A stretch of 64,000 nucleotides of DNA from a virus: the IMG/VR virus record IMGVR_UViG_3300020392_000008, positions 41,023 through 105,022 of that record; one strand, written 5' to 3'. The notes below the pieces were generated by a model. It made no database searches and was not told the origin of the DNA. It saw only the letters and a program-made list of their open reading frames with translations. Positions within the stretch are counted from its first letter, which is position 1; every line of letters starts with the position of its first letter. Position numbers and translations under genes: made by a program. Shown here one piece after another: positions 33,633 to 55,742 of the stretch.

Positions 33633-35210
33633 ATGAAGACTTTTATAAACAAAACGATTGATACGCTATCAGACAGCAATGTTTCTAGTAATTCTTTAGT
33701 AAAGATTTTAATAGAATCTACTAAAAATTCTTTAGAAACAAATAGCGGTATATCTTCGACATATAATTCCCTAAAAAATGGATTGGTAGAATTAAACAAC
33801 CATTTAAAAAATGACACTATCACAAATATATTGGAACAGTTTGATAAATTTGAATATTCAGACAACAATAGAATAAATGAAATGAATAAAGAAGCAGGTT
33901 TAGCTTTAGAAATAGAAAAAATAAAAACCAGTGATTCCTATTCTAACCCAATATGTCTTCAAAATGTAATTATTTTAGAAGAATCTATTAAGGAAAATCC
34001 TGAATTTTTATTCTATGGAAAGTTTGTAGATTTATTTAAACAGTTTTCTTATGATGACGTTGTAAAAGAATCAATTACTAGAATATCTGATTATATAAAC
34101 AAAAATGTTGAAAAGCTAATGGTATTAGATTCTATCAACAATATGAAAAAATCAAAGGGATACGAAAAAGATATAGAGGGATTAAGTAAAATGTTAATAT
34201 CTGAATCTTATTCTAGTGAAGCTATTAAACATAGACTTAACAGTGAACTTCCAATACTTAAAGATCTTTATTCTAGATTAGCTATGATAGAGTCTAAAAA
34301 TTCTTCATCTTTTACTTTAGGTAGTGGAAATTCAGAATGTATTATAGAAAACACAATTGCACCTACTTTAAAAACAGGTAAAAACACTATTTTAAGTTTT
34401 ATTGATAATAAATTTATTGCAATATCTACTAAAAACCTAACTAAAGGATCTATGCTATCTGAGTCTAAGTCATCTAAGGTTTATGAAATGGATGCAACAT
34501 ATATAAAAGAAAAATATAATTCTTTTTATACTTTATGTGAATCTTTTTTTAATTTAGGATTTAAAAAGTCTCAACATGGAATAAAATCAACATCAATAAA
34601 AAACTTTACTTTAGAATTTGCAGCAGATGAACTTGGTAAATTAGATGTATTTGTAAATGAAAGTATTGTAAAAAATCCTAAAGAATTTAACTTCAGTGAA
34701 ATACTTACACTTGAGAGCAACTCTATTAAAACTCAAGTTAGTAAAATACTAAAAGAATCATCTAATATATTCAACTTAGAATTTATAAAAACTTTAACTA
34801 ACAACTCTACAGGTAAAAGGGTTATAGTAATGGAATTAGAAGGAGATTATCACGTTTGCGAAATGTTAAATCAAGTAGAAAGAGTTTGGAAAAACGATAT
34901 TAACGAATACAAATTACATAATTATATTTTAGAAAACTTTAAATACGATATTTCTTCTATATTTCAAGTAAAAATAGACGAACAAAAATTAGCTATTAAA
35001 AACATTGAATCTAGAAAATCAGAAATTGAAAATAATATTTCTAAATTAGAAAATGAAGTTAATAAAATTAAAACTAATATTGAATCAGGACAAATAGATT
35101 CTAAATATTTTGGACAACTTGAAGACATCAAAGAGCAATTAGAAATTAAAATAAACTCTTTAAAAGAAGAAATTGTAGAAAACGATCTTAAAAAAAAAGA
35201 ATTAGTCTAA
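33633..35210 (+). CDS. Putative head-core/scaffold-like protein with C-terminal coiled coil
   Basis: GATAAATA upstream; many (L/I)xES sites; ends at an A9 run. Confidence 0.7.
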   Translation: MKTFINKTIDTLSDSNVSSNSLVKILIESTKNSLETNSGISSTYNSLKNGLVELNNHLKNDTITNILEQFDKFEYSDNNRINEMNKEAGLALEIEKIKTSDSYSNPICLQNVIILEESIKENPEFLFYGKFVDLFKQFSYDDVVKESITRISDYINKNVEKLMVLDSINNMKKSKGYEKDIEGLSKMLISESYSSEAIKHRLNSELPILKDLYSRLAMIESKNSSSFTLGSGNSECIIENTIAPTLKTGKNTILSFIDNKFIAISTKNLTKGSMLSESKSSKVYEMDATYIKEKYNSFYTLCESFFNLGFKKSQHGIKSTSIKNFTLEFAADELGKLDVFVNESIVKNPKEFNFSEILTLESNSIKTQVSKILKESSNIFNLEFIKTLTNNSTGKRVIVMELEGDYHVCEMLNQVERVWKNDINEYKLHNYILENFKYDISSIFQVKIDEQKLAIKNIESRKSEIENNISKLENEVNKIKTNIESGQIDSKYFGQLEDIKEQLEIKINSLKEEIVENDLKKKELV

Positions 35211-35464
35211 TAAGCGAAAGCTTTGATGGAAATTATAAAAATACCCGTTCTTATAAAATAGGGCAAAGAGTTTCTGTCAAAGATAAAGTAGGAACTATAA
35301 TAGGAGTAAATACCGCTATAAATGAGTATCAGATAATGATTAATGGAGTGTCAAAATCTTATAAATCTCAGGATATTTCTGAAATAGAAAAACTAAAATC
35401 TAAAAAAGTTAACCTTAAACTTAAAAAGAAAATTAAGGAAAAATCTTATCTAGATAAAAAATAA
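35192..35464 (+). CDS. 90-codon -1 frame extension of the 33633 gene, no start codon near its 5' end (candidate programmed frameshift product)
   Basis: The frame opens right after TAA at 35189-35191, within A9, and reads KKRISLISESFDGNYKNTRSYKIGQRVSVKDKVGTIIGVNTAINEYQIMINGVSKSY...LDKK*. Confidence 0.65.
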   Translation, partial: KKRISLISESFDGNYKNTRSYKIGQRVSVKDKVGTIIGVNTAINEYQIMINGVSKSYKSQDISEIEKLKSKKVNLKLKKKIKEKSYLDKK

Positions 35465-35470
35465 AAAAAA

Positions 35471-35662
35471 ATGATTTATATTTCAATTTATATATTATTA
35501 GGTATTATAGTTACTTTTTTAACAGAGCTTTACGTTGAGCGCGTTAAGTATCTAGTCCCAGAAGAAGACAGGTTTGAATTTGATGGAATAACTAGAGCGA
35601 TTAACATATTTCTGTGGCCTATATTTTTACATAGAATAATTAAGTCTTACTTCTTTAATTAA
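35471..35662 (+). CDS. Small membrane protein
   Basis: Two hydrophobic segments; IFLWPIF. Confidence 0.7.
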   Translation: MIYISIYILLGIIVTFLTELYVERVKYLVPEEDRFEFDGITRAINIFLWPIFLHRIIKSYFFN

Positions 35663-36936: not shown

Positions 36937-38364
36937 ATGAAAAAAATAGCTATAATACTTGGAAGAGGAGTAGAAGGTTGTGGAGTAACTCGATGCGCAG
37001 TCGAATTTCAAAAAGCAACCCCTAATACAAAAATATTTGCAACAATAGATAAAAAATGGGCCCGTAGAGACACCATGGTTTTTGACAAAGATGAGTTTAC
37101 TTGCGCAAATTCAGAGGAAATGAATAAAGTGCTAACAGAAGTTAATAAAAATTTCGATATGGCTCTTATATATTCTGTTCCTTCTAAAAAACATCCTGAA
37201 GATTGTCAAACTAATTTTGTTAAACTTGTTAAAGGAATAAATTTACCCAAAGCGATTATTCAACTAGACCATAAAATGCAGTCTTTAAGTAGAAATGGAA
37301 AGTTTGATGAAATATGCAGTAATGTAGATGTTTTAATGACTCATTCTTTAGAATCTGATTTTACAAGATGGGCAAAAAGAGAAAACGTAAATACTCCTTT
37401 CAAAAAAATGGCATTGGGTTTTACATATGATGATCATAGAGAAAAATACTGGCTGCCAATAAGTGAGCAAGATCATAAAACAGTTAGATGGATTGGTAGG
37501 CTATCTGGCTGGAAAGGACCTAATTTAATGATGGACTTTCATGCTCAACATTTAATGAAAGAAGGCTACATAACAATACTTGAAGGACTAGAGGCAAGTA
37601 TAGGTTGGGCAGGCATATTGTATGAAAAAGGAGATAATAAAAATGGAAAACCTTTTTATAAAGATAATGAAATAGTAAATTATTTTAGACCTAGAAAAGA
37701 ATTAAACGAGGTAAAATTTACAGAAGATTTGCATGGAAAAGAAATTCATGGAGCTGGAGCGTACTTATATCCTCCTTATACAAATGTAGACTGCATGGAA
37801 CGTATGGCAAAAAGTGCTTTTGGGTCTGATTTATACCATTTGAAAGCTCATATGTATGGTAACAATATTGAAAATTGCCATGCTGAAGTAATTGCATCTG
37901 GAACTATCCCTATTTTTCATAAACATTTTTGCGATAATGTAATACATAGAGTTACTGGAAACCCTGTAAGTGAAGATAGTCATAGTGGAACAATAGGACT
38001 TGATAAAACTAATTTTAATAAATGTTCAAATCTTATGGTTAAATTATCTAATGATCCTGTGATGAGAGATGAAATGAGAGAAATGTCATTTGAATATTGG
38101 AAAAAGCATTCAAACGCAGAAATATGTACACATGAAATCATTAAAAATCTAGAAGATATAGTATCAGAAAAAGGTTTTATAGGTGCACAGGAATCCTCTA
38201 ATGTACCTAATGATAATAACCAATTAAGTATATTTGATTCAATAGAAAGTACACCAAAAGTATCTAATGCTATTATAGAAGAAAATTTACAAAAAAATTC
38301 TAATGATGTTACTAATGAAACTGTAGATTATGATTCATTATTAAATGACTTAAAAAACTTATAA
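36937..38364 (+). CDS. agt: DNA alpha-glucosyltransferase (T4 AGT-like)
   Basis: N-terminal IILGRGVEGCGVT matches T4 AGT (MARGLEGCGVT); IIQLDH, RWIGR..WKG, EVIASGTIPIF. Confidence 0.85.
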   Translation: MKKIAIILGRGVEGCGVTRCAVEFQKATPNTKIFATIDKKWARRDTMVFDKDEFTCANSEEMNKVLTEVNKNFDMALIYSVPSKKHPEDCQTNFVKLVKGINLPKAIIQLDHKMQSLSRNGKFDEICSNVDVLMTHSLESDFTRWAKRENVNTPFKKMALGFTYDDHREKYWLPISEQDHKTVRWIGRLSGWKGPNLMMDFHAQHLMKEGYITILEGLEASIGWAGILYEKGDNKNGKPFYKDNEIVNYFRPRKELNEVKFTEDLHGKEIHGAGAYLYPPYTNVDCMERMAKSAFGSDLYHLKAHMYGNNIENCHAEVIASGTIPIFHKHFCDNVIHRVTGNPVSEDSHSGTIGLDKTNFNKCSNLMVKLSNDPVMRDEMREMSFEYWKKHSNAEICTHEIIKNLEDIVSEKGFIGAQESSNVPNDNNQLSIFDSIESTPKVSNAIIEENLQKNSNDVTNETVDYDSLLNDLKNL

Positions 38365-43338: not shown

Positions 43339-43839
43339 TTATTTATTTAAATGGCGATCTAATATTATCAACTGCCATTCACTTATCTTAGGGTAAGCCT
43401 CTTCAGCTGTTAAAAAACCTGCCCAGTCAACTTCTTCTGCTTGTAACTGATTTTTAGGTATTCTTAAACTATTCATCTTTATTTCAGATAAATCTTCTAT
43501 TTTGTGTAAAAAATAAATTAATTGCTTTTCAACATTTCCATTTTTATCATATAAATCACATACGTATGGCTCAGACTTTGAAAGTATGGAAGCATTTAAT
43601 TCTATTCCTGTTTCTTCTTTAAGTTCTCTAATAGATCCTGTTAAAACGTCTTCTCCTTTTTCTACTTTTCCTTTAGGTATTCCTAATGTTCTTTTTTGCC
43701 AACTGGCGTTAGTTGGATGAACTAGTAAAATTTTATTATCATGTATTATACATACGCCTGCTACTTTATTTTCAATAGAATCATCTACATCTTTCCACTC
43801 TTCGTTTAACACAGATTTCAAGCTTTTAAACGATTTCAC
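43339..43839 (-). CDS. NUDIX hydrolase
   Basis: Nudix box GKVEKGEDVLTGSIRELKEETG. Confidence 0.9.
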   Translation of the reverse strand: MKSFKSLKSVLNEEWKDVDDSIENKVAGVCIIHDNKILLVHPTNASWQKRTLGIPKGKVEKGEDVLTGSIRELKEETGIELNASILSKSEPYVCDLYDKNGNVEKQLIYFLHKIEDLSEIKMNSLRIPKNQLQAEEVDWAGFLTAEEAYPKISEWQLIILDRHLNK

Positions 43840-44621
43840 TTTTTAGCTTTACTTTTTTTAACGTTTGCCCAGGGTTTACTAGGCGTAGCTTTGTTTACTC
43901 TTGCCATTGCCCATCCGTGTGCAGTCATGCCTGGTCTAGACCCTGAACTATAAAATGCTCCTAGTCCTTTAATGTATTCGGCTTTTAAACTTCCAAAAGT
44001 ATATCCTTTTTTATTTGCAACCTTTCTTATTTTTGCTTCAGTTGCTTTACTTAAAGTTTTTTTCTTTTTCTTTTTCTTTGCTTTTTTAGCTTCATTAATA
44101 GGTTCAGTATCTTTATTTCTTATGCAAAGTTCTCCTAATACTTCTATTTTACCTACTATTTCTTGAAATTTCTTTTGAGTAATGTCCATGTCTTTAGAAG
44201 TTGACTCAACTAATTCGTTTATTAAGTCATCATACTCGTCTTTAAAGTTTGACATATCAAAGTTTCCTTTAGCCGCTTTTTCATAATATGGTATTTTAAC
44301 TTTAAAATGATCATACGAAAGCATAGAAAAACCTCCTTTTTCTTTAGAGCTACTTACTGTGTTTTTTGCACTATCACCTCTTTTTTCCGCAAATTCTGTT
44401 AAATCTACTTTTGGGTCTATTGTTTCATTAGTTTTTTCTCTTTCATCTGCCTCCATCTTATCCCTAATTTCATAAGCTTTCTTTTTATCGGCTTCAGAAC
44501 CTTTTAATAACTTTTGAACTTTTTTCAATAAAGTATCTCTTTTACTACCCTTAGGCGCTTTATATTCAGAAGGATGCTCTTCTTTTAAATATTCAGTATA
44601 ACTTTTTATAGGCTTATTCAT
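43836..44621 (-). CDS. Hypothetical protein with N-terminal tag and basic C-terminal domain
   Basis: MNKPIKSYTEYLKEE; C-terminal GLGAFYSSGSRPGMTAHGWAMARVN. Confidence 0.75.
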   Translation of the reverse strand: MNKPIKSYTEYLKEEHPSEYKAPKGSKRDTLLKKVQKLLKGSEADKKKAYEIRDKMEADEREKTNETIDPKVDLTEFAEKRGDSAKNTVSSSKEKGGFSMLSYDHFKVKIPYYEKAAKGNFDMSNFKDEYDDLINELVESTSKDMDITQKKFQEIVGKIEVLGELCIRNKDTEPINEAKKAKKKKKKKTLSKATEAKIRKVANKKGYTFGSLKAEYIKGLGAFYSSGSRPGMTAHGWAMARVNKATPSKPWANVKKSKAKK

Positions 44622-44624
44622 TTT

Positions 44625-44903
44625 CTATTTCTTTTTTTTATTTAAAATCTTTTTTACTTTTTCCCTAACTTTTTCCATTTTTTTAGCATAGGTAGGGTTA
44701 CTTTTTTTATTAAAGTTTATTTGTTGGTTTAAGCTTCCTGTTATCTTTCTCATATCACTATTTCTAGTTTTAATTAGCCAATCAGCAAGTGCTTTTATAC
44801 CTAATTCTTTAAACTTTCCATTTGCATCAGGTGCATCTGAATGATGAAACTTCAATCTTTTTTTCTCGTTTAGAACAAAATTTTTAAAATTTAATAGTTT
44901 CAT
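44625..44903 (-). CDS. Small basic protein with N-terminal tag
   Basis: MKLLNFKNFVLNE. Confidence 0.7.
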   Translation of the reverse strand: MKLLNFKNFVLNEKKRLKFHHSDAPDANGKFKELGIKALADWLIKTRNSDMRKITGSLNQQINFNKKSNPTYAKKMEKVREKVKKILNKKKK

Positions 44904-45509: not shown

Positions 45510-46091
45510 TTACCAGTATCCTGGATATGTTTTTCCTCCCCAAAGATGGGCGTATTTGTTAATTCTACAAGACCAATATCCTGCTTTTGTTTTATCTTTT
45601 TTAGTGCTACATTTATGACGAGCAGCAAAACTTTTTCTAGCTTTAGGATCACTTACTTTGGCTTTTAGTCCTGTTGTATCTCCTATCTGTAACATTTTAA
45701 CATTTCCAGTTTTAGGATTTCTAACATATACTTTAAATTTTTTAGATCCTCCTCGCGTTGGATAATTAAGTTTAACTTCCCTGCCTTTATATTTAGCTTC
45801 ATTTAAAATAAAATCTTCTAAAGGTAAATCGAGTGGAACCGTATGTCCTTCGTATACTCCTACTTTACCTAAATCGGTTTCATCAAAAAGAATTGCGTCA
45901 TCGTAACCTAATTTTAGTTTACCTAAAGAGTAAAGTTCCCTAGCCTCTTTAAGAATTTCTATGTGAGAATGGCTTCCTGGTCTAAATACTGTTTCGACAA
46001 TAGATATTGAATTATCTATATGGTATTGTAAATTTTCAGAAATTGGATTTATACCAGTGTATTCACTAAATGATTTTATTCTATTTTTCAT
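45510..46091 (-). CDS. Hypothetical protein with N-terminal tag and basic C-terminal domain
   Basis: MKNRIKSFSEY; LNE-AKYKGR; ARKSFAARHKC...GYWSC. Confidence 0.75.
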   Translation of the reverse strand: MKNRIKSFSEYTGINPISENLQYHIDNSISIVETVFRPGSHSHIEILKEARELYSLGKLKLGYDDAILFDETDLGKVGVYEGHTVPLDLPLEDFILNEAKYKGREVKLNYPTRGGSKKFKVYVRNPKTGNVKMLQIGDTTGLKAKVSDPKARKSFAARHKCSTKKDKTKAGYWSCRINKYAHLWGGKTYPGYW

Positions 46092-54608: not shown

Positions 54609-55040
54609 ATGCAGGTATTAAAGGTTCCATTAGTAAAAGACTCATTATTTGAAAGAGAGCTAAAAAAATATCTCTTATATAGAATGGACTTATTATTTAA
54701 AGAATACAACAATAATATACCTGACACTATTTCATGTAAAGGTCACTTAGGGAAGCATGTATTTAATATTATAACTAGTAATAATTGGAAATTTGGTTCA
54801 ACTAAAATAGTTCACGAGAAGGGTCCTAATGCAATAGAGATAAGGTTCGACAATGGTATAAGCATAGAAAAAAATTCTAAATTATCAATGGGCACCGGTT
54901 CAACTATGGATGGTAGAGTAATTGAAGGATTTATAGATTCTAAAAGCCAGGCTTCTATTATACAATCTTCCATAGATAATAATTTTACTATAGAAAAAAT
55001 TGTTAACCCCAAGGTTATTATAAAGTTAGAAAAACTATGA
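54609..55040 (+). CDS. Hypothetical protein
   Basis: 143-aa ORF within an operon. Confidence 0.65.
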   Translation: MQVLKVPLVKDSLFERELKKYLLYRMDLLFKEYNNNIPDTISCKGHLGKHVFNIITSNNWKFGSTKIVHEKGPNAIEIRFDNGISIEKNSKLSMGTGSTMDGRVIEGFIDSKSQASIIQSSIDNNFTIEKIVNPKVIIKLEKL

Positions 55041-55742
55041 AATATCCTTAACTACATAGGCTGTTACTTTGCCTACTCCTTTTAGTTTACTCAATGGTTC
55101 ACAGGTATGCAATTGAAGTTCAGATAACATTCTTCCAGATCTTTTTCTTTTTCCAGAATAACATTTATGTCTATAGTCTATAATTTCCATTTTATATTTA
55201 CTATCGTTTAAATACTTTACTATTTTTTCTTCTTGTAATTTATCTAAACTTTCTGTAAAACTAAAAGCCATTTCACCAGATTCAGATACAGTTGATTCCA
55301 TTCTAGATGCAGTGTTTACCGTATTTCCAAAATAATCCCATAATTTTTTATTTTGAATATTTACTTTCTTTTTATATAAAGGACCCCATGATATTCCCAT
55401 TCTAATAGTTAAAGGTTTTCCTTTTATCTTAATGGGTTTTTTATAAAGATTTTTTTGTATTTCTATGCCCGCTAAAATGGCTTTATATAATGAATCTTTT
55501 CCATCCCAGCCTAACATATAGCTATCGCCTATTGTTTTTATAATATCTCCACCGTGCTTTGGAACTATTGTTTCCATTCTTTTTTCATGTTCTTTAAGAG
55601 CGTCAAACATTCCATCTTTATGTAAGTTCCAAAGTTTAGAACTACCCTTGACGTCTGTGAATAAAATAGCTTGATCTTTTTCTTCTAGTTTATCTAAATC
55701 GGATACGCTTTCAAACAATTTAAAAGATGTTATCATGTTCAT
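55035..55742 (-). CDS. Class III adenylyl cyclase, stand-alone, with N-terminal tag
   Basis: AILFTDVKGS, IIKTIGDSYM, IRMGISWGP, WDYFGNTVNTASRME, LKGVG. Confidence 0.9.
   Translation of the reverse strand: MNMITSFKLFESVSDLDKLEEKDQAILFTDVKGSSKLWNLHKDGMFDALKEHEKRMETIVPKHGGDIIKTIGDSYMLGWDGKDSLYKAILAGIEIQKNLYKKPIKIKGKPLTIRMGISWGPLYKKKVNIQNKKLWDYFGNTVNTASRMESTVSESGEMAFSFTESLDKLQEEKIVKYLNDSKYKMEIIDYRHKCYSGKRKRSGRMLSELQLHTCEPLSKLKGVGKVTAYVVKDIS

What the first reader, a model, noticed from the sequence alone, without database searches (positions are those of the whole stretch)
33633..35464. Candidate -1 programmed frameshift adds a 90-aa SH3-like/basic tail to a putative head protein
Seen: the 525-aa ORF ends CTT AAA AAA AAA GAA TTA GTC TAA, with A9 at 35190-35198 (an in-frame A_AAA_AAA heptamer). 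The -1 frame has a stop at 35189-35191 and is then open for 90 codons to 35464, filling the otherwise empty gap up to the next gene at 35471. Its only ATG is halfway along. It encodes LISES, the same motif repeated in the parent protein, then YKIGQRVSVKDKVGTIIGV (SH3/KOW-like) and a Lys-rich end. Inference: ribosomal frameshifting or transcriptional slippage gives two isoforms.
Basis: partly seen in the sequence, partly recalled or inferred. Interest (0 to 1): 0.7.

Follow-up and report, generated by a model that had tools for sequence, protein, structure and literature searches.

The report
Conserved A9 slip site fuses SH3-like domain
A large phage makes two versions of one protein by slipping one base backwards at a run of nine A's, which adds a small barrel-shaped domain; the trick is kept across very distant relatives, so it is real, but it belongs to a known kind of gene-expression device.

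Summary
The 525-aa ORF (33633-35210) ends CTT AAA AAA AAA GAA TTA GTC TAA. The -1 frame is closed by TAA at 35189-35191 and then open for 90 codons to 35464.

One A9 run in a 27% GC genome is not beyond chance. The comparison with relatives decides it. Of 79 related IMG/VR loci, 51 have the same layout: an A run (A9 in 34 of 36 distinct sequences, counting the window; one A8, one A10) a few codons before the stop, followed by a homologous -1 ORF with no start codon. These loci form three deep clades, down to 26% identity.

The run is never interrupted by AAG, although other conserved Lys codons often are. One derived clade lost the run; there the domain is a separate gene with its own start and a T4-like capsid-targeting tag. 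Three remote homologues carry the domain in frame.

The extension is a disordered linker with an invariant [LIV]-x-Glu, a Tudor/KOW/SH3-like barrel, and a tail. I conclude that this is programmed -1 recoding giving a 610-aa isoform. Transcriptional slippage is slightly favoured over ribosomal frameshifting.

Release of the domain by a T4-type prohead protease is inferred, not shown. "Head protein" is unproven. Another first-stage note on this genome flagged the same site.

The parts
33633..35210 (+). Zero-frame gene for the 525-aa protein (P0001). It has a helical N-domain (1-223), a beta domain (236-423) and a C-terminal helical hairpin (445-524). Its function is unknown.
   Evidence: ORF list and translation. 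AF2 model with pLDDT 85. 25 homologues of 492-535 aa. No Pfam, PHROG or PDB fold match.
33708..33719 (+). L-I-E-S at residues 26-29 of the parent protein, a candidate T4-type prohead protease site.
   Evidence: The site is kept in 34 of 35 aligned homologues. P0001 has 6 [LI]-x-E-[SAG] sites against 1.9 expected; 3 of 300 shuffles reach 6. Cleavage itself is inferred.
35190..35198 (+). A9 slip site: Lys520-522 as AAA AAA AAA, containing the in-register heptamer A_AAA_AAA.
   Evidence: the run is A9 in 34 of 36 distinct sequences counting the window (A8 in L027, A10 in L011), in register 0 or 2; 0 of 34 AAG in the run columns, against 4-21 of 31-34 in seven other conserved Lys columns.
35189..35191 (+). 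TAA stop in the -1 frame, which closes that frame just 5' of the run. Entry into the -1 frame must therefore occur within 35192-35207.
   Evidence: the overlap window is 16 nt here and 13-73 nt in relatives.
35208..35210 (+). Zero-frame stop TAA of the short (525-aa) isoform.
35192..35464 (+). The -1 frame ORF: 90 codons (P0002) plus a stop at 35462-35464. With slippage the product is residues 1-522 plus 88 residues, 610 aa in all.
   Evidence: Homologous -1 ORFs are found in 51 loci (hmmsearch E 1e-18 to 1e-35). Alignments A3 and A4.
35210..35221 (+). I-S-E-S (P0002 residues 7-10) in the disordered linker, with an invariant Glu. It is a candidate protease site between carrier and domain.
   Evidence: E9 is invariant in 24 and 26 aligned sequences. 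The same [LIV]-x-E-[SAGD] precedes the domain in separate-gene forms and in-frame forms. Cleavage is inferred.
35252..35383 (+). Five-stranded Tudor/KOW/SH3-like beta barrel (P0002 residues 21-64).
   Evidence: AF2 pLDDT is about 91 for this part. Foldseek matches NusG KOW, PHF1/PHF19 Tudor, YorP and KIN SH3-like at rmsd 1.2-2.2 A, E 2e-3 to 2e-2. Pfam gives only sub-threshold SH3-like hits.
35384..35461 (+). Disordered Lys-rich tail (12 Lys in 26 residues).
   Evidence: The tail is basic in clades 1 and 2 but acidic or neutral in clade 3.

Best explanation
This is a programmed -1 recoding site.

Most expression of the gene stops at TAA 35208 and gives the 525-aa protein. In a fraction of events the reading frame moves back one base within the A9 run (35190-35198). 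Translation then continues through 35198-35461 and gives a 610-aa isoform reading ...DLKKK-RISLISES....

I favour slippage of the host RNA polymerase on the nine A's, which adds one A to part of the transcripts (about 55% of the recoding probability). Tandem -1 slippage of ribosomes on A_AAA_AAA, or A_AAA_AAG in relatives, is the alternative or an added contributor (about 45%). Both routes give the same protein.

The added part has three pieces:
- a disordered linker with an invariant [LIV]-x-Glu;
- a Tudor/KOW/SH3-like barrel;
- a tail, which is basic in this phage.

The following is inferred, not shown (about 0.45). The 525-aa protein is built into the prohead. The fusion carries the small domain in with it. 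A T4 gp21-type prohead protease then cuts after the Glu and frees an 81-residue, probably nucleic-acid-binding, internal protein. A sister clade reaches the same end by giving the domain its own start codon and a T4-like capsid-targeting tag.
For: Shown:
- (1) Anatomy.
- (2) 51 of 79 IMG/VR relatives, from contigs up to 271 kb, have an A run a few codons before the stop plus a -1 ORF of 80-110 residues homologous to P0002.
- (3) These loci form three deep clades on both sides of the midpoint root of the main-protein tree, at 26-88% identity to the window protein.
- (4) Synonymous constraint: 0 of 34 AAG in the run columns, against 4-21 in seven other conserved Lys columns. Lys AAA use is as low as 0.45 in some relatives.
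- (5) In 36 distinct sequences (35 loci plus the window) the -1 frame has no ATG, GTG or TTG before the conserved Glu (one TTG in L071). Seven also lack any ATT, ATA, ATC or CTG there.
- (6) All 26 loci without a run of 7 or more A's lack a start-less -1 ORF. In 15 of them the domain is a downstream gene with its own ATG or TTG. In the stand-alone forms it also has an added N-terminal tag M-K-x-I-L-S-Y-x-x-[YF]..S-L-K-E-S. That clade is monophyletic (SH-aLRT 95).
- (7) In-frame fusions occur in remote homologues. P0082 matches at hhalign probability 98.2, E 5e-14. P0055 matches at probability 95, E 4e-8. The 617-aa protein of huge phage LR756500.1 is the third case.

For transcriptional slippage:
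- Run length is held at 9 in both registers. Four register-2 lineages use TCA, TTA or CTA, so a synonymous A extends the run.
- No downstream RNA structure is shared by all clades.
- Bacterial RNA polymerase slips efficiently on 9 A's or T's, and its RNA:DNA hybrid is 9-10 bp (PMC5009743).

For the packaging and cleavage reading:
- The Glu is invariant and a [LIV]-x-E precedes the domain in every architecture.
- T4 gp21 cuts after L/I-x-E, and 10-residue capsid-targeting tags deliver T4 internal proteins (PMC9026906).
- Relatives encode Peptidase_S77 and Gp23-family proteins.
- Tag-like N-termini occur on 11 of 78 window ORFs, against 2.9% of internal control windows.
Against: - There are no RNA or protein data, so neither the fused product nor its abundance has been observed.
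- A9 runs also serve as A-rich leaders just upstream of start codons in this phage, so the run could in principle have another role.
- The heptamer needed for ribosomal slippage is in register in every locus, so the two mechanisms cannot be separated from sequence.
- The A9 length partly follows from a conserved K-K-K.
- No Peptidase_S77 or Gp23 gene was found on the window's own contig, which is only 41% complete.
- P0001 has no recognisable head-protein fold.
- In a complete relative the homologue lies about 100 kb from the capsid genes.
- The tree is a quick search only.
Confidence: 0.85

Rival explanations
1. The recoding is purely ribosomal. It would be a classical tandem -1 slip on A_AAA_AAA (A_AAA_AAG in register-2 relatives) from uniform A9 transcripts, perhaps helped by the nearby zero-frame stop. 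This is a rival only for the mechanism within the recoding reading, not for recoding itself.
For: A heptamer in the correct register is present in every locus with the A-run layout. Register-2 loci have A_AAA_AAG, the most shift-prone heptamer in E. coli (PMC5009743). In L021 and L022 it is followed directly by TAA. Weak hairpins lie 13-14 nt downstream in some clades.
Against: Only 7 A's are needed, yet 9 are kept in both registers, including at synonymous third positions of the preceding Ser or Leu codon. A_AAA_AAA is much less shift-prone than A_AAA_AAG in E. coli, yet most loci use it. No stimulatory structure is conserved across clades.
Confidence: 0.4
2. The -1 ORF is translated on its own from a non-canonical start, or by re-initiation. 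In this reading the A9 run acts as the A-rich leader that precedes many genes of this phage, and no fusion protein is made.
For: Six of the other seven A9 runs in the window lie 0-15 nt upstream of start codons. ATT (35201) and ATA (35210) follow the run in the -1 frame. In one clade the domain really is a separate gene.
Against: No ATG, GTG or TTG lies before the conserved Glu in 35 of 36 distinct sequences, and seven also lack any near-cognate start codon there. Separate-gene forms have lost the run and gained both a start codon and a 9-residue tag that the start-less forms lack. Remote homologues fuse the domain in frame.
Confidence: 0.07
3. The recoding is real, but the extension stays attached as a permanent C-terminal domain of a minor isoform, like T7 10B or frameshift-added Ig-like domains. 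It would not be released by a protease.
For: This is the usual fate of frameshift-added domains on phage structural proteins (PMC5009743). Relatives L013, L018, L024 and L039 carry other in-frame C-terminal add-ons on the same protein. The [LIV]-x-E motif is short.
Against: The Glu is invariant, and the motif precedes the domain in frameshift, stand-alone, cargo-fused and in-frame forms. In stand-alone forms it follows a tag like those at 11 other N-termini in the window. Relatives have a T4-type protease.
Confidence: 0.35
4. The layout is an artefact or a relic. Either the true sequence is A10 and the gene is one 615-aa ORF (a homopolymer error), or the downstream frame is a decaying remnant that is not expressed.
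For: Homopolymer length errors are common in assemblies. One extra A would join the two frames.
Against: 51 loci from many independent metagenome assemblies show the same two-frame layout. L011 has ten A's and still two frames. All 25 protein homologues are 492-535 aa. The -1 ORF is conserved as protein at 25-81% identity with invariant residues and folds confidently.
Confidence: 0.03

Closest known systems
Phage T7/T3 gene 10 (capsid 10A/10B) and other frameshift-extended phage structural proteins (Ig-like domain additions; Listeria phages A118, A500 and PSA)
   Same: In both, a slip near the 3' end of a phage virion-related gene gives a minor isoform with an extra C-terminal domain encoded in another frame, and both isoforms come from one gene (PMC5009743).
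   Different: The protein family, slip site and added fold are different. Here the site is a pure A9 homopolymer, so RNA polymerase slippage is likely. The added domain is an SH3-like barrel behind a protease-type site. Related phages encode the same domain as a separate tagged gene. The parent is not the major capsid protein: relatives have a separate Gp23-family gene.
Thermus thermophilus dnaX and bacterial IS elements that use transcriptional slippage on A9/T9 runs; E. coli dnaX A_AAA_AAG ribosomal frameshift
   Same: The signal is the same: nine A's for RNA polymerase slippage, or A_AAA_AAG for ribosomes. In both, homologous genes in different lineages reach the same two products by different means.
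   Different: In dnaX the shifted product is the shorter one. Here the shift lengthens the protein by 85 residues. This is a phage late gene, and the mechanism has not been tested.
Retroviral and totiviral Gag-Pol: frameshift fusion to a capsid component, then cleavage
   Same: If the inferred part holds, the logic is the same. A fixed minority of carrier molecules is extended by recoding, so a second protein is built into the particle at a set ratio and then released by the maturation protease (introduction of PMC5009743).
   Different: This is a dsDNA tailed phage. The cargo is a small SH3-like domain, not an enzyme. Neither packaging nor cleavage has been shown.
T4 internal proteins IPI-III and Alt with capsid targeting sequences cut by gp21
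   Same: Stand-alone forms of the domain start with a tag like the T4 tag, followed by L-x-E. The released piece would be small and basic, like T4 internal proteins. Relatives encode a Peptidase_S77 protease and a Gp23-family capsid protein (PMC9026906).
   Different: In the window's clade the tag is absent and is replaced by recoding-dependent fusion to a 525-aa protein. There is no sequence homology to T4 internal proteins.

Membership tests
Programmed -1 recoding site (ribosomal frameshift or transcriptional slippage) | A slippery sequence in the correct register inside the overlap of two open frames | tested here: met
   A9 contains the heptamer A_AAA_AAA in register. The -1 frame is open only from 35192 and the zero frame ends at 35210.
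Programmed -1 recoding site (ribosomal frameshift or transcriptional slippage) | Site and second frame conserved in relatives beyond what coding needs explain | tested here: met
   51 of 79 loci in three deep clades have the layout. There is no AAG in the run (0 of 34), against 4-21 in other conserved Lys columns.
Programmed -1 recoding site (ribosomal frameshift or transcriptional slippage) | The second frame encodes a real protein that lacks its own start | tested here: met
   hmmsearch E 1e-18 to 1e-35 across clades, a confident barrel fold, and no canonical start before the conserved residues in 35 of 36 distinct sequences.
Programmed -1 recoding site (ribosomal frameshift or transcriptional slippage) | The trans-frame product is detected | not testable with these tools
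   This needs mass spectrometry, a western blot or a reporter assay.
Transcriptional slippage site (bacterial RNA polymerase) | A homopolymer of about 9 A or T, the length of the RNA:DNA hybrid | tested here: met
   A9 in 34 of 36 distinct sequences, one A8 and one A10, in two registers. The requirement is taken from PMC5009743.
Transcriptional slippage site (bacterial RNA polymerase) | Transcripts heterogeneous in run length | not testable with these tools
   No transcript reads were available.
Ribosomal -1 frameshift cassette of the dnaX type | A 3' stimulatory hairpin or pseudoknot 5-9 nt after the heptamer, or a 5' Shine-Dalgarno-like stimulator | tested here: inconclusive
   Weak hairpins lie 13-14 nt downstream in some clades: a C-GAAA-G tetraloop stem in the window's clade and an 8-bp stem in part of clade 3. 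None is shared by all.
KOW / SH3-like / Tudor barrel domains | A five-stranded small beta barrel | tested here: met
   AF2 gives strands at 26-29, 32-40, 45-50, 53-58 and 62-64 with pLDDT about 91. Foldseek matches KOW, Tudor, PWWP and SH3-like chains at rmsd 1.2-2.2 A.
KOW / SH3-like / Tudor barrel domains | A match to a curated sequence family above threshold | tested here: not met
   Pfam gives only sub-threshold hits: MSSS SH3 in 7 of 26 members (best E 0.0027), DUF5097 in 7 of 26, plus Tudor_RapA and KOWx_SPT5. The PDB profile search gives E above 0.5. The domain is therefore SH3-like by fold only.
T4-type prohead protease substrate / capsid-targeted internal protein | An L/I-x-E site at the boundary of the propeptide or carrier | tested here: met
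   I-S-E-S is present here. The Glu is invariant, and [LIV]-x-E is present in all architectures.
T4-type prohead protease substrate / capsid-targeted internal protein | A gp21-family protease encoded by the phage | tested here: inconclusive
   None was found on the window's own contig, which is 41% complete. One is present above the Pfam cut-off in three related genomes.
T4-type prohead protease substrate / capsid-targeted internal protein | The protein is found in proheads or virions and is cleaved | not testable with these tools
   This needs virion proteomics.
Phage head structural protein (major capsid, portal, scaffold) | Sequence or fold match of the 525-aa protein to a known head protein | tested here: inconclusive
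   There is no Pfam or PHROG family. Foldseek against PDB gives nothing at E up to 1e-3. VIA-align matches only the terminal helical hairpin. BFVD matches only uncharacterised proteins, including one from Tenacibaculum phage PTm1. Relatives have a separate Gp23-family capsid gene.

The most novel reading that the evidence does not exclude
A tailed dsDNA phage lineage uses Gag-Pol-like logic. Slippage at an A9 run, probably by the host RNA polymerase, fuses a small SH3-like, nucleic-acid-binding cargo to a prohead-incorporated carrier in a fixed minority of molecules. The T4-type maturation protease then frees the cargo inside the capsid. Over evolution this device is interchangeable with a capsid-targeting tag (one derived clade) and with in-frame fusion (remote relatives). 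It would be the first conserved use of transcriptional slippage for virion cargo loading in a phage.
Probability: 0.4. Interest if true: 0.75.

Novelty: new member of a known kind. Interest (0 to 1): 0.6.

Why it matters
Gene callers miss this isoform. All database homologues are annotated as proteins of about 530 aa, with either an orphan or an uncalled downstream ORF. The result therefore corrects the annotation of a family found in many large freshwater and marine phages, probably of Bacteroidota.

It also gives a clean natural test case for separating RNA polymerase slippage from ribosomal frameshifting. One family holds three solutions: A9 in two registers, a separate tagged gene, and in-frame fusion.

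If the packaging reading holds, it shows how T4-like giant phages set the dose of an internal protein. It also suggests a way to load foreign cargo into capsids.

Tried and rejected
DNA around the homologues was taken from IMG/VR with the search for related loci instead.
- blastn and tblastn of the region and of P0001 against the phage collection found nothing.
- Pfam and PHROGs gave no family for P0001. They gave only a weak PHROG hit (E 0.004) for the extension.
- Fold searches of P0001 did not name the protein. Foldseek against PDB found nothing credible. VIA-align matched only the generic helical hairpin. The ESM Atlas gave only low-score coiled-coil look-alikes.
- Peptidase_S77, Gp23 and T4 portal families were not found on the window's own contig. 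That contig is incomplete, so this says little.
- I looked for a conserved downstream stimulatory RNA structure. Only clade-specific weak hairpins were found.
- Assembly error was rejected. Independent assemblies agree, and the A10 variant still has two frames.
- An internal ATG start at 35336 was rejected. It lies inside the barrel (M49, nearly invariant) and would truncate the fold.
- The careful tree search did not finish in the time allowed, so the quick IQ-TREE result was used.
Full report
**Observation**

The window is part of a 105-kb IMG/VR virus contig estimated to be 41% complete.

- The ORF 33633-35210 encodes 525 aa and ends CTT AAA AAA AAA GAA TTA GTC TAA. The nine A's are at 35190-35198.
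- The -1 frame has TAA at 35189-35191 and then runs open for 90 codons to its stop at 35462-35464.
- The next gene starts at 35471.
- The only ATG of the -1 ORF is at 35336.

In this 27% GC genome an A9 run alone proves little. Such runs are in fact avoided: 8 sites against 24.8 +/- 7.2 in shuffles. The other seven are all intergenic, and six of them sit 0-15 nt upstream of start codons. This is the only one inside a long ORF.

**Relatives**

They come from contigs of up to 271 kb.

Scripts over these loci show three architectures.

- Class A: the window plus 51 loci, 36 distinct sequences.
  - An A run ends 1-15 nt before the stop. It is A9 in 34 sequences, A8 in L027 and A10 in L011.
  - The run is followed by a -1 ORF of 80-110 codons that an HMM of the extension finds at E 1e-18 to 1e-35.
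  - The run is in register 0 (AAA AAA AAA G) in most loci.
  - It is in register 2 (xxA AAA AAA AAG, or ACC in L027) in L021, L022, L027, L028 and L031-L033. L011, with A10, also begins its run on the third base of a CTA codon.
- Class B: 15 loci with no run of 7 or more A's.
  - The domain is a downstream gene with its own ATG or TTG.
  - In stand-alone forms it has an extra N-terminal tag M-K-x-I-L-S-Y-x-x-[YF]-x-S-x-S-L-K-E-S.
  - In L018, L019 and L053 it forms the C-terminus of a roughly 250-aa tagged protein, again behind I-K-E-S or N-E-S.
- Class C: 11 loci with no run and no domain nearby.
- L008 and L020 end before the stop and could not be classed.

**Depth and selection**

- On a quick maximum-likelihood tree of the main protein, class A occupies three deep clades on both sides of the midpoint root. 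Class B is one derived clade (SH-aLRT 95). Class C is scattered. Main-protein identity to the window falls to 26%.
- In a codon alignment of 34 class-A genes, seven conserved Lys columns outside the run use AAG in 4-21 sequences. The two run columns use it in none. Some of these phages use AAA for only 45-48% of Lys codons.
- In the -1 frame no ATG, GTG or TTG lies between the upstream stop and the conserved residues in 35 of 36 distinct sequences. Seven also have no near-cognate codon there.
- The -1 product is conserved from the run onward. It reads K-K-x..[LIV]-x-E-[SAG], with an invariant Glu, and then the barrel motif.

**Fusion elsewhere**

A profile of the extension was searched against 1.8 billion representatives. 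It found stand-alone forms of about 95 aa and two long proteins.

- P0082 (881 aa) and P0055 (654 aa) are remote homologues of the main protein. hhalign against A2 gives probability 98.2, E 5e-14, and probability 95, E 4e-8.
- Both carry the domain in frame at the C-terminus, behind Q-I-N-E-D in P0082 and behind K-V-E-E-A and A-V-N-E-S in P0055.
- A 462-kb huge phage, LR756500.1, has a 617-aa homologue with an in-frame barrel-like end behind N-V-S-E-A.

The two parts are therefore one polypeptide in distant relatives. This is what a recoded fusion predicts.

**Structure**

- The AF2 model of the extension has pLDDT of about 91 for residues 21-64, which form a five-stranded barrel. Both ends are disordered.
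- Foldseek matches NusG KOW, PHF1 Tudor, PWWP, YorP and KIN SH3-like domains at rmsd 1.2-2.2 A, with weak E-values.
- Pfam gives only sub-threshold SH3-like hits.
- P0001 folds confidently (pLDDT 85) into a helical domain, a beta domain and a terminal helical hairpin.
- P0001 has no informative match in PDB. In BFVD it matches only uncharacterised proteins, including one from Tenacibaculum phage PTm1.

**Mechanism**

Both routes give the same 610-aa protein.

- For RNA polymerase slippage:
  - The run is held at nine in both registers, including synonymous A's in preceding TCA, TTA or CTA codons.
  - No stimulatory structure is shared by the clades.
  - Nine A's or T's are the classical bacterial slippage signal and match the 9-10 bp hybrid (PMC5009743).
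- For the ribosome:
  - An in-register heptamer is always present.
  - Register-2 loci have A_AAA_AAG.

I put recoding at 0.85. Within that, I put transcriptional slippage at about 55%.

**Function (inferred)**

- The [LIV]-x-Glu in front of the domain in all architectures matches the L/I-x-E specificity of T4 gp21. The class-B tag resembles the 10-residue T4 capsid-targeting sequence (PMC9026906).
- Three related genomes, two of them estimated at 93% or more complete, encode a Peptidase_S77 domain and a Gp23-family capsid protein. The window's own partial contig does not.
- In the window, 11 of 78 ORFs begin with a similar tag, against 2.9% of internal control windows.
- P0001 has the highest density of [LI]-x-E-[SAG] sites among 22 large ORFs (6 sites against 1.9 expected). 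Two of them are conserved.

Taken together, this suggests that the fusion carries the barrel into the prohead and that the protease then frees it. No step of this has been observed, and I give it about 0.45.

**Verdict**

This is a real, ancient and conserved recoding site in a new protein family of large phages. The principle is known from T7/T3 gene 10, frameshift-added Ig-like domains, and dnaX. The Gag-Pol-like reading and the likely use of transcriptional slippage are the parts that would be new.

Noticed in passing
window 18661, 23675, 24873, 33610, 35463 (+), 47032 (-): Runs of 9-10 A's lie 0-15 nt upstream of start codons, as A-rich leaders. Overall, A9 runs are three times rarer than in shuffles. 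This fits a host without Shine-Dalgarno use, such as Bacteroidota.
   Followed up: partly
L015:5591-5710, and the same place in L016, L017, L023, L024, L070, L080: In relatives with a separate domain gene, a roughly 38-aa lipoprotein-like ORF (hydrophobic stretch, Cys, then C-D-A-Y) sits between the main gene and the domain gene. It overlaps the main gene's stop as ATGA and the next start as TTGA.
   Followed up: no
L015:5740-5765 and homologous sites in L016, L030, L042, L070: A 7-bp hairpin covers the S-x-S-L-K-E-S codons and shows two compensatory changes: GCGACTC/GAGTCGC, GCGCCTC/GAGGCGC and GTGACTC/GAGTCAC. Its function is unknown.
   Followed up: partly
L082, L083, L084 (G003:55503, G001:100030, G002:162804): In relatives the T4-type prohead protease domain lies inside a 663-674-aa open frame, far longer than T4 gp21. 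It is about 2 kb upstream of the Gp23-family capsid gene. It may be a protease-scaffold fusion.
   Followed up: no
window ORF starts at 43836-44621(-), 44625-44903(-), 45510-46091(-), 47082, 50469, 55035-55742(-), 55823 and others: Eleven of 78 ORFs begin with a tag of the type [FYILW]-x-x-[FYW]...[LIV]-x-E, for example MNKPIKSYTEYLKE and MKNYLKDFNSFSINE. The rate in internal control windows is 2.9%. This resembles the T4 capsid-targeting sequence.
   Followed up: partly
L013, L018, L024, L039 (3' ends of the main gene): Some relatives extend the same protein in frame by 110-210 residues of unrelated sequence. The C-terminus of this family therefore seems to be a general attachment point for add-on domains.
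   Followed up: no
window 36937-38364: A T4-like DNA alpha-glucosyltransferase is encoded here (Pfam AGT E 1e-30; PHROG 2888 E 2e-72). This suggests glucosylated hydroxymethyl-cytosine DNA.
   Followed up: no
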